NCBI GenBank assembly: GCA_046290225.1
Contig: JBKAGE010000070.1
Span: 128,001 to 192,000, forward strand
Reading direction: 5' to 3'
Length of the DNA: 64,000 bases
Source: Bradymonadia bacterium
GTDB taxonomy: Bacteria > Myxococcota_A > Bradymonadia > UBA7976 > UBA1532
The notes under the pieces are model-generated. The model saw nothing but the letters and a program-made list of their open reading frames with translations, made no database searches and was not told where the DNA came from. The translations under genes were made by a program, and so were the position numbers. This document shows, piece by piece, positions 1,556-60,360 of this stretch; the first letter of the stretch is position 1, and the number at the start of each line of letters is the position of its first letter.

Positions 1556-1788
1556 CCCCTTGAACCAACATCAAATACTTCTACACCCTCCGTACGACCC
1601 ACCTCTCCTGCCCTCCTAAGCATACGAAATCATAGGCAGAACATTTTTTTCTGCTTTTTTTTCGACCCCATCCCACGCAGAACATTAAGAACCAAAAAGA
1701 AGATACCGAAACATTAATCAGCAGCGACGCACAGAAGAAAACGAAGACAAGCAACAACAACCACCGCGTCGCCAAAGAGGTATCCACC

Positions 1789-56148: not shown

Positions 56149-57801
56149 ATGAATCGTTTTGTATGTGTGGCCGGCGTCGCCTGGTCGCTTGTGGGCTGTG
56201 ATCTCATCTCTTCCTCAGAAGACTCATCAAATGAGCTCCGTCGGCAAAGAGAAGCTGTCGTCTGTGAGGTGCAAGCATGCGAAGATGGAATCGGTCATCG
56301 CCAAAGCGCGCTGAGCAGCGCAGCCCCCGTATTCATGCGGCGGGTTGAAAAGGCCGAGGTCGTCGCCAAGCTCGACACCCTCTTACACGAAGACCATCTG
56401 GCAGCGCAGTGGCTGTATGCGTGGCTTCAGCCCGAAGCCCTCGACGCCACCCTGGCGCCTGAGCTGCTGGAGGCCGCCCGAAGCGCCGCGCTCTCACCCG
56501 TTCGGCGGGCCAAGGTATCTCAACAACTCGACGAAGCTCTGCCTCACTGGCGACAACTTGGCCAACGGCGCATCGAAAGCGTGGGTCATCATCTGAACGC
56601 ACGGCCGGAGCGACCTGCCCTCGCAGTGGGCAGATACCCGCTCGAAACATCAGGCTGTGGCGAGATGGCTCTACGCATGGCCATCGAGAGCGTGCAAGTC
56701 GTCGAGCGCGAAGACAACATCCTTGGCGATAAGATCTATTGCGTCATCCGAGCGCAAGATGACACACAGGTCGAGGTCTTGCAGACTGATCCATCGCCAG
56801 CACTCGGGGTGAACGGACGGCACGACTTCGAGCACACGATCTTTTATGGGCGAGCAGGACATCGAGACCCAGGGCAAGATCTGAAGATCAACTATGACTG
56901 CTACGAGATCGACGATGACGAGGATTACGAGCGTATCTCTGAAATCATCGACGAACTTGAGCGCGTTGGTGTGCATCTGGGCAAGCTCACTGGCACGCCG
57001 CAGGCCGCAGCATTCGCGGTGCAGATCGCCGAGTGGGCCCGCATCGTCGCCCAGTTTGCGGCGATCTTCGACGGAGACGATCATCTCTACATACATGAAG
57101 AGATTCTGGATCGCCGCGCCCTATGGCGCCTGATGACCGACCGCAGGCGCACCCTGGTGGCCCGAGACGAGAACAACCTCTCGGAATGGTCTTGGGTGCT
57201 GTCGTTTCGCACGGATGGGTGTGCCATGGGCGTCTCTTCCGAAGAGCCAGCGCCCTCGGGCCCGCGCTGTTCAGAGACGTGTGTTGGGTGCTGCGTGGGC
57301 GAGCGCTGCGTGACGGCCACCGACAACCAAGCATGTGGCTCGGATGGAGCGTCATGCCGTTCCTGTCAGGGGGCGGACGTCTGTACAGATGGCGTGTGCA
57401 CCTTCGACGTTGATCGCGTGGCGGTGGATCTGAGCGTGGTCTCGGCCCACATAGAGCGCAATAAGTCTGACGGGCGATGCTGGGATCTCGGCGGCTGTGG
57501 CAACCCGCCCGATGTGTATATTTCAGTTGATGGCGGCGGATGCCAGGGTGCCACCCCCATCCAAGAGGCCTTCTCACCCGCATGGGGTGCCACAGTGTGT
57601 CCGAGCCTGACCGCCGGGGCGCTCCTCGACGGTGTCTTCGTACGGGCGATCGACGACGACCTCCAAAGTGACGATCTCATCGGCGAGTGCTGGTTTTACT
57701 TCACTGAGCAAGAGATACGTGGGTTCTCTTCTGGTCGAGTCGAAGAGAAGACCCGACGCTGCGGCGCTGCAGAGATCACTCTCGGGATTCAGCTTCGCTG
57801 A
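56149..57801 (+). CDS. Lipoprotein with Cys-rich module and C-terminal C2-like domain
   Basis: Lipobox LVGC; CxxxCxGCC...ACG...C module; WD..GNPPDVYI...IDDDLQSDDLIG; start GTG 56140 or ATG 56149. Confidence 0.75.
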   Translation: MNRFVCVAGVAWSLVGCDLISSSEDSSNELRRQREAVVCEVQACEDGIGHRQSALSSAAPVFMRRVEKAEVVAKLDTLLHEDHLAAQWLYAWLQPEALDATLAPELLEAARSAALSPVRRAKVSQQLDEALPHWRQLGQRRIESVGHHLNARPERPALAVGRYPLETSGCGEMALRMAIESVQVVEREDNILGDKIYCVIRAQDDTQVEVLQTDPSPALGVNGRHDFEHTIFYGRAGHRDPGQDLKINYDCYEIDDDEDYERISEIIDELERVGVHLGKLTGTPQAAAFAVQIAEWARIVAQFAAIFDGDDHLYIHEEILDRRALWRLMTDRRRTLVARDENNLSEWSWVLSFRTDGCAMGVSSEEPAPSGPRCSETCVGCCVGERCVTATDNQACGSDGASCRSCQGADVCTDGVCTFDVDRVAVDLSVVSAHIERNKSDGRCWDLGGCGNPPDVYISVDGGGCQGATPIQEAFSPAWGATVCPSLTAGALLDGVFVRAIDDDLQSDDLIGECWFYFTEQEIRGFSSGRVEEKTRRCGAAEITLGIQLR

Positions 57802-58074
57802 TGTACGTGCAGACCCCTGATACACCTCTATCACTGCTCGATGTGCGACACTGCGTGTGTTGTGCAAAAAGAAAACATGAGCACCCTGCCTGAAAGCCAA
57901 ACGTAAAACGCTCGACCACCCCACTGCTCATCTGGCGGACTTGAAGGGCCCTGCCTCGCCCCTACACCCAAATCCCCTGCGCCTCGTGGGCAAGGCATCA
58001 AGCGTGCCACCTACCCCATTGGACGCTAAGCGACTGAATTATTTAAGAACAGGTACCCTGGAGCTTCTAGGAGG

Positions 58075-58153
58075 TATGTGCGTGCACATGTGCATGCACA
58101 CGGCTTTGCACATGTGCACATGTGCGCGCACACCCCTGACCATGTGCGCATGC
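58075..58153. repeat. Overlapping TGCACATGTGCA-type palindromic, alternating purine-pyrimidine repeats
   Basis: TATGTGCGTGCACATGTGCATGCACAC...TGCACATGTGCACATGTGCGCGCACAC...CATGTGCGCATGC. Confidence 0.8.
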
Positions 58154-58214
58154 TCGCCTCTCGGCCCATCGTCCGTGGCGCATACAGCACTTACGCGAGT
58201 AGCCCGTTTCGCTC

Positions 58215-58632
58215 TGGGTCCTCGAAAAGTGACCCATTAGGGAACACAGTCAAAAGCCGATGATCAGGTCACTACATGGAGCTGCTCAACAGTTTGTGTA
58301 GTTGTGCCTCTGCACACATGACTTGGGGCCGGGTGGCAAATCTCTTTCCTCTTCAGCCAATCCCTGCCACTCGGCCCCTGTCTCCGCATCCTTGTCACAC
58401 ATCACCTCCCCAGGCAATGCGCCTATTTCATAAAGACGCAACGAAACGAATCCGAAACATTAACTAACTACGCCAGCATCCCCTGTGCTTGCGTAGCAGT
58501 GCCTTTGAGCACGTCAGAGGATCGAGTGGCGCCACACTGGTCTGCTTAGGGCAGGCTCCCGCCTCGCTGAGTATGTAAAACCCGATCTCACCTCAGCATA
58601 TCTGACCTCAGCCCTGCGCTGCTCGATCCTCT
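58215..58632 (+). ncRNA. Candidate structured non-coding RNA region (series of hairpins)
   Basis: Stems at 58215-58236, 58271-58302, 58325-58378, 58468-58496 and 58516-58632; most non-Watson-Crick positions are G-U on the + strand. Confidence 0.5.
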
Positions 58633-58685
58633 CTACTTGAGATTCACCAGGGCAAACAATGAGCGACAGCCAGCACCTCCCGAGA

Positions 58686-58922
58686 TCAATCGTCTTCGAT
58701 CACATCCAGTGTGATCTCGTCATTGCCCCAGCTCATCGCCTCCCCCACACAGCGTGCCACATGGGGCATGCAAAGCATCACTGCAGGTCGCCCGGAGCAA
58801 TGACAACCTGTACCTGCCCCACCTGAATAACGGAAGCCTCTCTGCTGGGCATGCACGGTGCCAGTACACGCTCTCTCCGGTGCCTCACGCGCCTTGCAGC
58901 AATCTGCCTCGACTCTGGTCAT
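58686..58922 (-). CDS. Small Cys-rich protein (78 aa), possibly metal-binding
   Basis: GGGAGAGG SD before ATG 58922; 7 Cys including CC, CHC and LCMPH. Confidence 0.45.
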   Translation of the reverse strand: MTRVEADCCKAREAPERACTGTVHAQQRGFRYSGGAGTGCHCSGRPAVMLCMPHVARCVGEAMSWGNDEITLDVIEDD

Positions 58923-59108
58923 CACCTCTCCCTTCGAACATCTTCGACGCATGTGGGCAGGGCATCCTCACCACACTTGCTCACCGCATACCCCCGTACA
59001 CAGTGAACCCACCCCACACCCTCATCTAGGGGGCAGCCTGCGCCGTTCTCTCTGGACATCTCGGAAAAAGTGAACTTCCGGGTCTTCAAGTGTCGGGAGG
59101 TCAGCATC

Positions 59109-59504
59109 ATGACGGTAAAATCGAGTCATCGTTCGGAACTGGTGTGCCTCCTGGCGCGCTTTGACCTGCCGGCTCTGGCGGAGGCGCTCGGGGTCAGTCT
59201 GAAGCGACTTCAGAGGGTTTTGCGCGCACTCGATACCGGCGGGTCATGGCCCACCCGGGGGAGGCTCACGATGGACCGGGTGGCTGTGGCCTTGCAGGTC
59301 GATCCGACCCTGCTCGAACGCGAGACACCCGATCTGCGCCGACTGGTCCTCGAAGGATGGTTGAGGGAGAAACACGGGCCCGAGTTGGAGCGTACAGCCC
59401 ACGAGGTTCGGGGCTATGGCGAGGCGGTATTGAGAGAGGCCCGCGCCTTGCGGGCTGCGGCAGAGCGACCTCTCAAGCGTCTCGGGGGCGGGGTGGCGGA
59501 GTAG
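59109..59504 (+). CDS. Putative XRE-like HTH DNA-binding protein
   Basis: GGGAGG SD; LPALAEALGVSLKRLQRVL and RVAVALQVDPTLL pattern. Confidence 0.65.
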   Translation: MTVKSSHRSELVCLLARFDLPALAEALGVSLKRLQRVLRALDTGGSWPTRGRLTMDRVAVALQVDPTLLERETPDLRRLVLEGWLREKHGPELERTAHEVRGYGEAVLREARALRAAAERPLKRLGGGVAE

Positions 59505-59814
59505 TCACGGGTCCCAGCGCCCGACGCAGCCGGTCTCGTGTTCGGTATGCCTCTCGTACAGGCCGCGGGGTGGGAACAGGCGTGAGGGGCAGAGGTAGGG
59601 GTGTTGAAGTCATGCCCACCTCTACGGCACACGCGCTCGCTCACCGACTTTCGCCCAATGACCCAGCCGGCCCCATTGTGGGCCAGGAAGCCTCATTGCC
59701 TTCAAAAAGCGCGTGTGCTGTTTCGAAGCGATCCGGGCCGACCTGGGTGAGCTGGACGAAGTGGAGCTGTGAGGTCACTCTGAAGCACCCTTCCGAGGCC
59801 GCACACAGGCTTCA

Positions 59815-60360
59815 TCAATGTGTCCCAATGCACATGAACGCGCCAGGCGCCGAGCCTTCACACGACTCACCATGACAGCTGTGGTTGCTCTCCTCGCCAG
59901 AGCCACAGAACATCTCACAGCATTCCGCAGTGAGCGTGCGCTGCGTACACCCCAATGGGTTGGGCACACAACGCGGACTGGCCATGCTGCATACGCTGTC
60001 CACGAACTGTATGCAGATCTCGTCGGGGGCACATTCCGGGCACGTCTGGCCACTTCCAGGGGTGAGAGCGACTCCTTCATCCGGAAGGCCTTCATCGGGA
60101 AAGCCATCATCTGGAAGATCATCGTCGGGCACATCCTGATCTGAGGTGCCGCGGTCGGAGGGATCGTCCGGACTGCCTTCATCGGGCACTTCACCTTCCA
60201 TCGAAGGCTGCTCATCCTGGTCGCCGCCCTCTTGATGCCCCTGCAGGCCGAGATCGGCGGTGACCTCAGCTTGCCCCCCATCATCAGCGGCCCCGTCGTT
60301 GTGCTCTTCCACACATGCAATGCAGCCCACGCTCAGCGCGCACACGATGATGGACTTCAC
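59815..60360 (-). CDS. Small lipoprotein with acidic repeats and Cys-rich C-terminus
   Basis: GTG 60360 after GGGAAGG; lipobox-like CIAC; PD(E/D) repeats; Cys-rich C-terminal domain. Confidence 0.7.
   Translation of the reverse strand: MKSIIVCALSVGCIACVEEHNDGAADDGGQAEVTADLGLQGHQEGGDQDEQPSMEGEVPDEGSPDDPSDRGTSDQDVPDDDLPDDGFPDEGLPDEGVALTPGSGQTCPECAPDEICIQFVDSVCSMASPRCVPNPLGCTQRTLTAECCEMFCGSGEESNHSCHGESCEGSAPGAFMCIGTH
60074..60192 (-). repeat. Degenerate 15-bp tandem repeat encoding xPD(E/D)(G/D) pentapeptides
   Basis: CCTTCATCCGGAAGG / CCTTCATCGGGAAAG / CCATCATCTGGAAGA / TCATCGTCGGGCACA... Confidence 0.7.

What the first reader, a model, noticed from the sequence alone, without database searches (positions are those of the whole stretch)
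58215..58632. About 420 nt of near-continuous + strand RNA structure with no convincing ORF
Seen: TGGGTC/GACCCA (58215-58236); ACTACAT-GGAGCTG/CAGTTT-GTGTAGT (58271-58302); a 14-bp stem GGGGCCGGGTGGCA/TGCCACTCGGCCCC with a 26-nt C/U-rich loop (58325-58378); an A-rich linker; CTACGC-AGCA/TGCT-GCGTAG (58468-58496); and a 17-bp stem (58516-58532/58616-58632) closing two hairpins. Most non-Watson-Crick positions are G-U on +, as expected for selection on RNA. RNase P, tmRNA, SRP and 6S hallmarks are absent. Inference: a novel large ncRNA or sRNA cluster, convergent with the small Cys-rich ORFs.
Basis: partly seen in the sequence, partly recalled or inferred. Interest (0 to 1): 0.7.

Follow-up and report, generated by a model that had tools for sequence, protein, structure and literature searches.

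The report
Tandem sigma-28 small RNA twins
The hairpin-rich stretch is not one long RNA but two related, folded, non-coding copies in tandem, the second sitting right behind a motility-type (sigma-28) promoter, so they are likely a new pair of small regulatory RNAs of a marine myxobacterium-like genus, with targets still unknown.

Summary
The stems are real and favour the + strand, but the stretch is not one 420-nt RNA. It holds two diverged paralogues, copy 1 (58271-58382) and copy 2 (58467-58632). A covariance model built from copy 2 alone finds copy 1 end to end (26.2 bits; best unrelated hit 11.5). Folded separately, they share 23 base pairs: 6 changed on both sides, 4 on one. The scaffold is the same; the apical part differs (26-nt C/U loop or 83-nt insert). 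Its class is strand- and spacing-specific in this genome and precedes chemoreceptor, cheY and pilM genes. Copy 1 has a good -10 box but a poor -35 box. No Rfam match; no homologue in 27 family genomes or 400 phylum genomes; a close relative occurs in two marine metagenomes. Best reading: sigma-28-driven, Hfq-independent small RNAs that pair with mRNAs through C/U-rich loops, like Campylobacter CjNC1/CjNC4. Expression and targets are untested. The scan noted a sigma-28 sRNA in another genome; a sequence look-up found no look-alike of this stretch.

The parts
58237..58263 (+). Candidate sigma-28 promoter of copy 1: TTAGG (58237-41), 14 nt, GCCGATGA (58256-63). The -10 box is good, the -35 box poor.
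   Evidence: Spacing and -10 box fit the genome's flagellin/flgM/fliS promoters, but the score is only 7.3 (rank 2562 of 4405 intergenic hits). It aligns with the copy 2 promoter. Weak.
58271..58382 (+). Copy 1 RNA (about 110 nt): hairpin 1 (58271-58302), hairpin 2 (58303-58316), 14-bp stem P3 (58325-38/58365-78)
   Evidence: z -5.62 on +, -4.09 on -; found by the model of copy 2 at 26.2 bits; ends are predicted, not mapped
58339..58364 (+). 26-nt C/U-rich apical loop of copy 1, candidate pairing seed
   Evidence: Unpaired in the ensemble; no sequence-specific target
58431..58458 (+).
58467..58632 (+). Copy 2 RNA (about 166 nt): hairpin 1 (58468-96), hairpin 2 (58499-58512), 17-bp stem P3 (58516-32/58616-32)
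   Evidence: z -4.68; begins 9 nt after the -10 box; 4 differences in 171 nt in a relative; no U-tailed terminator
58533..58615 (+). 83-nt branched insert of copy 2, in place of the loop of copy 1
   Evidence: Model alignment; several near-equal folds
58215..58236 (+).
   Evidence: 58205-58310 folds at z -1.40 only; no counterpart in copy 2
59109..59504 (+). Neighbouring 131-aa gene with a likely HTH; link to the RNAs not shown
   Evidence: Homologues at 77% and 66% identity from metagenomes; weak HTH signals; no true hit in 60 related genomes (one weak hit inside an unrelated large protein)

Best explanation
The stretch holds two diverged tandem copies of one folded non-coding unit, and these are likely two small RNA genes switched on by sigma-28-family factors that would repress mRNAs by pairing their C/U-rich loops with purine-rich ribosome-binding regions, without Hfq. 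Shown: the two copies, their shared three-helix fold with compensatory changes, the promoter-class match in front of copy 2, the motility and chemotaxis genes behind other promoters of that class, and no Hfq or ProQ match. Inferred: transcription, start sites near 58271 and 58465-67, 3' ends set by trimming to the long stem, a working promoter for copy 1, and the pairing mechanism. My odds: two paralogous structured RNAs 0.85; sigma-28 promoter for copy 2 0.85; working promoter for copy 1 0.45; base pairing as mode of action about 0.55.
For: Paralogy: model R1, built from copy 2 alone, finds copy 1 over the full model at 26.2 bits, E 9.5e-8 in 64 kb; the best hit outside the 57800-59815 stretch is 11.5 bits. 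By sequence alone the two halves align better than 1990 of 2000 shuffles. Selection on structure: folded separately and aligned by sequence only, 23 of the 34 pairs of copy 1 map onto pairs of copy 2; 13 are unchanged, 6 changed on both sides and 4 on one; all 14 P3 pairs are kept. The model-fitted alignment gives 7 both-sided, 5 one-sided and 1 broken of 29 pairs. Promoter: T[AC]AAG-N15-NCCGA[AT] occurs 23 times in sense and 4 in antisense upstream of genes; spacer 16 gives 9 and 3, and the other nine spacers give 0-3 in sense (p 3e-4). Of 27 intergenic sites 25 are sense, and the other 24 sense sites lie 35-193 nt before a predicted gene. Pfam names MCPs, STAS, CheY-like and PilM among those genes. 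Two FliA/WhiG genes and eight flagellin-domain matches are present. Among the 27 sites this one has the most folded downstream 172 nt: z -5.5, with 25 of the other 26 at -1.7 or weaker. Conservation: the relative's contig over copy 2 differs at 4 of 171 bases against 33 of 369 in the two flanking pieces (p 0.003). Loops: confidently unpaired bases are 33 of 44 and 33 of 46 C/U, with 2 and 3 G. No Hfq or ProQ.
Against: No expression data. The promoter pattern was drawn up after seeing this site; the published rule is independent but looser (158 intergenic matches, about 0.03 expected per 418 nt). Whole-genome counts of the stricter pattern exceed the reversed control clearly in only a few of 28 family genomes (own genome 12 against 7). 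The -35 box of copy 1 is poor. Covariation rests on two sequences, and I chose the segments that were aligned. Copy 2 is not significantly more conserved than all other pieces of run X1 together (p 0.13). The piece holding the loop and 3' strand of copy 1 is the most diverged (16 of 151), and the contigs are shallow, from one study, and may be different strains. No intrinsic terminator. No specific target: flagellar starts pair better with the copy 1 loop (p 8e-5), but 1 of 2 shuffled loops did as well (p 2e-4). The loops differ between the copies, so what is conserved is the scaffold, which could instead point to a protein partner.
Confidence: 0.5

Rival explanations
1. Same two sigma-28-driven RNAs, but they act by binding a protein through the shared scaffold (two hairpins plus the long stem); the loops are passengers.
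For: The scaffold, not the loops, is what the copies share; no target enrichment beyond composition; a conserved HTH-like gene lies 480 nt downstream.
Against: CsrA is ruled unlikely as partner: 3 GGA on + against 5.4 expected, and csrA sits beside a gene I recognise as fliW from its sequence. The unpaired bases are strongly C/U-biased in both copies, as in pairing sRNAs.
Confidence: 0.17
2. One transcript: the copies are read together (copy 1 running into copy 2, or copy 2 running on as a 640-nt leader of the HTH gene) and act in cis or are cut out by nucleases.
For: No terminator after either copy. The HTH gene is the next + strand gene. 58551-76 is 77% complementary to 59016-41, near the HTH start.
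Against: Sequence beyond 58632 has no + strand folding signal until the HTH start, and the long transcript folds at only z -2.0. That stretch is more diverged in the relative (17 of 218 and 12 of 151). A full promoter between the copies argues for a separate start.
Confidence: 0.17
3. A duplicated fold-back DNA element (MITE or REP-like relic) that is not transcribed; the promoter match is chance.
For: This genome is rich in hairpin repeats; long stems form on either strand; no homologue outside the genus.
Against: Only two copies, adjacent. Changes between them keep RNA pairs, including G-U on +; DNA folding shows no strand preference. No target-site duplication is seen around the 17-bp stem. 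A rare promoter sits 9 nt before copy 2.
Confidence: 0.1
4. A minus-strand small-protein gene (58286-58441 or its 38-codon form from 58402), with the stems as mRNA structure.
For: GGAGGTG directly before an ATG; best coding score among the small ORFs (-0.8); three GGAGG[TC]G motifs on - in 900 nt.
Against: No homologue. GGAGG 2 nt before a start is rare here (8 of about 480 starts). It does not explain copy 2 or the + strand promoter.
Confidence: 0.05

Closest known systems
CjNC1/CjNC4 (CJnc10/CJnc170 = FlmR) of Campylobacter jejuni (PMC4626219 and PMC11187230, passages read)
   Same: Two paralogous non-coding RNAs behind sigma-28 promoters in a flagellated bacterium without Hfq; proposed to pair with 5' UTRs of motility genes
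   Different: Those are about 44 nt, 37/44 identical, at separate loci, with a conserved pairing region and a terminator-like stem. Here the copies are 110 and 166 nt, tandem, 48 of 81 aligned bases identical, with a conserved scaffold, different loops and no terminator. No Rfam match links them.
UhpU, MotR, FliX, FlgO of E. coli (PMC10578931, abstract and section 16 read)
   Same: Sigma-28-dependent sRNAs layered on the motility regulon
   Different: UTR-derived and Hfq-bound; here stand-alone intergenic copies in a genome with no Hfq or ProQ match
Pxr of Myxococcus and its Cystobacter paralogues (PMC5568312, passages read)
   Same: Same phylum by inference; three stem-loops, about 110 nt; several paralogues that diverged
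   Different: Pxr has a sigma-54 promoter next to nla19. No sigma-54 site was found upstream of either copy, and there is no Rfam match.
WhiG/FliA promoters T(A/C)AA-N16-GCCGA (PMC12871210, passages read)
   Same: The copy 2 promoter meets the published search rule; the class precedes chemotaxis and type IV pilus genes, as reported for actinobacterial WhiG
   Different: Here it lies before a non-coding unit; which of the genome's two sigma-28 factors reads it was not tested

Membership tests
Sigma-28-dependent sRNAs (functional class; CjNC1/CjNC4, MotR/FliX) | Sigma-28 consensus promoter directly upstream | tested here: met
   Copy 2:
Sigma-28-dependent sRNAs (functional class; CjNC1/CjNC4, MotR/FliX) | Same for copy 1 | tested here: inconclusive
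   -10 GCCGATGA good, -35 poor; score 7.3, rank 2562 of 4405
Sigma-28-dependent sRNAs (functional class; CjNC1/CjNC4, MotR/FliX) | Transcript exists and depends on FliA | not testable with these tools
   No RNA holder listed
Sigma-28-dependent sRNAs (functional class; CjNC1/CjNC4, MotR/FliX) | Base-pairs with motility mRNAs | tested here: inconclusive
   Signal explained by base composition; no stand-out target
Any Rfam family, including the Campylobacter, E. coli and myxobacterial sRNAs it holds | Covariance-model match | tested here: not met
   Nothing at gathering score in the window; only E 3.3 and 4.7 hits on - over 58260-58645
Housekeeping RNAs (tmRNA, RNase P, SRP, 6S) | Model match here and no other copy in the genome | tested here: not met
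   Found elsewhere: C41, C41, C35, and C36 (6S below cut-off, E 1e-4)
CsrB/RsmZ sponges | Many GGA motifs in loops on the transcribed strand | tested here: not met
   3 GGA on + (5.4 expected); 10 on -, reached by 156 of 2358 intergenic windows
Pxr | Sigma-54 promoter upstream | tested here: not met
   Only one loose match in 57801-59815, inside the HTH gene
MITE/REP-like repeats | Many dispersed copies | tested here: not met
   Two adjacent copies only
Retron ncRNA | Reverse transcriptase gene next to the inverted repeats | tested here: not met
   No RT domain in the 10 nearby ORFs scanned

The most novel reading that the evidence does not exclude
The twins are a modular RNA switch wired to the genome's two sigma-28 factors. 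Copy 1, with 14-nt flagellar-type spacing, answers to the flagellar FliA. Copy 2, with 15-nt spacing, answers to the orphan FliA/WhiG that drives chemoreceptor and pilus genes. One conserved scaffold carries two different payloads, so that swimming and pilus programmes repress each other through RNA without Hfq.
Probability: 0.1. Interest if true: 0.72.

Novelty: new variant of a known kind. Interest (0 to 1): 0.46.

Why it matters
My three paper searches for sRNAs of this lineage, or FliA-linked tandem sRNAs in myxobacteria, returned nothing. If expressed, this is a new sRNA family, and it extends sigma-28-controlled riboregulation to an Hfq-less, flagellated predator lineage. The work also gives two distinct sigma-28 promoter classes in one genome, which makes the wiring testable. 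Reach is limited: the family is known from one genome and a close metagenomic relative, and the kind of system is known.

Tried and rejected
Homologue searches without result: DNA search in 60 relatives (two short hits of 50 and 23 nt, not followed as homologues); models R1 and R2 in 60 relatives; R3 in 27 family genomes; scaffold pattern in 400 phylum genomes; phages and plasmids (one 39-nt hit outside the finding); viral patterns (none; two inverted repeats with unrelated interiors). HTH-gene loci could not be fetched: the metagenome scan gave one unrelated locus, and viral and genome scans gave none. No RNA holder listed. The positions of the relative's differences inside the two copies were not shown, so covariation between strains is untested. 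Rejected: dif site or replication origin (dif-like match on C3 and no skew shift on C70; dif motif recalled); att site at a tRNA end (best shared words 10-11 nt); pseudogene (tblastx gave only low-complexity noise in the part of the output shown); island boundary by synteny (the two flanking conserved genes are on different contigs in all 4 relatives that have both, so uninformative); a third copy at 58037-58145 (12.2 bits, close to the 11.5 background) or at C82:21445-21631 (16.6 bits, E 0.19, lacks hairpin 1 and P3). My first sigma-28 test, with the flagellin-type matrix, did not support either site; the second class emerged only when the spacer was varied. The HTH structure model was poor (pLDDT 54.5) and gave no fold match at E <= 0.001. 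Supplements of the papers were not opened.

Full report
Setting. The window is C70:128001-192000 of an 8.58-Mb, 99% complete genome. Earlier scan notes call it Bradymonadia, Myxococcota; I did not test that label. The finding lies in a 1.3-kb non-coding gap between a 553-aa gene ending at 57801 and a 131-aa HTH-like gene at 59109-59504.

Observation. The stretch folds at z -4.52 on + and -2.95 on -. Of 503 long intergenic regions, 4 have two stems of 14 bp or more. Of 58 random windows (out of 308 eligible), 8 reach this z; 7 are multi-copy repeats and 1 is the probable 6S RNA. The structure is not continuous: 58385-58465 is unfolded (z +0.53) and 58205-58310 is weak (z -1.40). Rfam has nothing, and the housekeeping RNAs lie elsewhere.

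Two paralogues. 58271 and 58467 both begin ACTAC and continue with a hairpin of about 30 nt, a small GUGC/GCAC hairpin and a long stem. A covariance model built from copy 2 alone finds copy 1 end to end at 26.2 bits, E 9.5e-8 in the window, against 11.5 bits for the best hit outside this region (E-values rough). The earlier filtered genome search had missed it. By sequence alone, 10 of 2000 shuffles matched the halves as well. With each copy folded on its own and aligned by sequence only, 48 of 81 aligned bases are identical and 23 of the 34 pairs of copy 1 map onto pairs of copy 2: 13 unchanged, 6 changed on both sides, 4 on one side. All 14 pairs of the long stem are kept (I chose the segments). 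The model-fitted count is 7 both-sided, 5 one-sided and 1 broken of 29. The long stem closes a 26-nt C/U loop in copy 1 and an 83-nt insert in copy 2. This is the pattern of selection on an RNA fold after a tandem duplication, though it rests on two sequences.

The linker is a promoter. An earlier scan note on another genome (e1-6711299) prompted a look for sigma-28 boxes. The genome has two FliA/WhiG genes and eight flagellin-domain matches. Its flagellin, flgM and fliS promoters read YTCAAG-N14-GACGATGT; with that matrix the box before copy 1 scores poorly (7.3, rank 2562 of 4405) and the box before copy 2 is not listed (flgM and fliS named by me from sequence and position). Varying the spacer exposed a second class, T[AC]AAG-N15-NCCGA[AT]. 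It occurs 23 times in sense and 4 in antisense upstream of genes; spacer 16 gives 9 and 3, and the other nine spacers give at most 3 in sense (p 3e-4). Of its 27 intergenic sites 25 are sense; 24 lie 35-193 nt before a predicted gene, and the last is 58431-58458. Genes behind the class include two MCPs, a STAS-CheY operon and pilM. A matrix made from 7 other sites ranks this one 6th of 520 intergenic hits and first among non-seed sites, 19.6 against 16.7. Cautions: my pattern was shaped by this site; the published rule alone would be met by chance about 0.03 times in 418 nt; and whole-genome counts in relatives were mostly not above the reversed control. Copy 2 begins 9 nt after the -10 box, and its first 172 nt are the most folded downstream sequence of all 27 sites.

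Relatives. Nothing was found in 27 family genomes with the two-copy model, in 60 relatives with the single-copy models, or in 400 phylum genomes with a scaffold pattern. Two marine metagenome runs of one study hold a close relative over parts of 57860-59970. The contig over 58466-58636 differs at 4 of 171 bases; its two neighbours differ at 16 of 151 and 17 of 218 (p 0.003 together; p 0.13 against all other pieces of that run). Where those differences fall was not shown. The HTH gene has metagenomic homologues at 77% and 66%, so the locus probably has more distant versions that I could not fetch.

Mechanism. Shown: two copies, shared fold, promoter class, no Hfq or ProQ match, and loops about three-quarters C/U with almost no G. 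Inferred: both are transcribed from + under sigma-28 control, are protected at the 3' end by the long stem (no U-tailed terminator), and pair their loops with purine-rich ribosome-binding regions of mRNAs, most likely of the motility programme. Target scans over 5670 gene starts gave no stand-out hit, and the apparent preference for 47 flagellar starts was matched by 1 of 2 shuffled loops. A CsrA sponge is unlikely. A protein-binding scaffold and a processed or leader transcript remain open.

Comparison. It works like the sigma-28-dependent paralogues CjNC1/CjNC4 of Campylobacter (PMC4626219 and PMC11187230, passages) and the E. coli sigma-28 sRNAs (PMC10578931, abstract and one section). It differs in size, tandem layout, conserved scaffold with unlike loops, and lack of a terminator. 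It is not Pxr (sigma-54; PMC5568312, passages). Searches for 'Bradymonadia + non-coding RNA', 'Bradymonadales + sRNA' and 'myxobacteria + sRNA + FliA + tandem' returned no paper.

Verdict. A real, undescribed, narrowly distributed pair of structured RNA units, one with a strong sigma-28 promoter: a new variant of a known kind. Expression and targets are untested. Interest 0.46.

Noticed in passing
G000 C45:52507-52625 (+) and C61:11092-11026 (-) (loci L059, L060): Two copies (94% identical over 67 nt) of another sRNA-like unit: a hairpin with a C-rich tract, each behind a sigma-70-like TTG..-17-TA... promoter (read by eye); the C45 copy ends in a strong U-tailed terminator (z -3.64). No Rfam match above noise. 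Window 57936-57971 resembles its C-rich part weakly (E about 1).
   Followed up: partly
window 58072-58137: 23-bp inverted repeat built of alternating purine-pyrimidine GCACATGT units; a shorter look-alike lies at C70:269297. Possible protein-binding array; function unknown.
   Followed up: partly
window 58566-58584 and G000 C82:21544: GCTGAGTnnGTAAAA occurs only twice in the genome: inside the copy 2 insert, and 30 nt upstream of the sigma-28 promoter of an MCP gene. Chance or a shared DNA site.
   Followed up: partly
whole genome; C75:117524 and C82:157617: Two FliA/WhiG paralogues and two promoter classes (14-nt spacing at flagellins/flgM/fliS; 15-nt spacing at MCPs, STAS-cheY and pilM). 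The orphan paralogue has close matches (57-76% identity) in 15 of 27 family genomes. Which factor reads which class is untested.
   Followed up: partly
window 59109-59504: Narrowly distributed HTH-like protein; its C-terminal half resembles P0011, a protein with a transposase-type HTH (E 1e-4).
   Followed up: partly
window 1684-1712 (C70:129684): Another class-II-like promoter that shares CCGAAACATTAA with the copy 2 promoter, 105 nt before a small exported protein.
   Followed up: no
window 58400-58931 (-): Repeated GGAGG[TC]G motifs on the minus strand (3 in 900 nt; 0.3 expected), i.e. anti-Shine-Dalgarno-like CACCUCC words on +; most lie outside the two copies.
   Followed up: partly
G000 C36:5251-5458 (+): Probable 6S RNA, below the Rfam cut-off (34 bits, E 1e-4).
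   Followed up: no
G000 C78:534039-535013 and 538266-539192: Two genes that look like tyrosine recombinases (by eye, from their N-termini) interleaved with three flagellin genes; possible flagellin shuffling.
   Followed up: no
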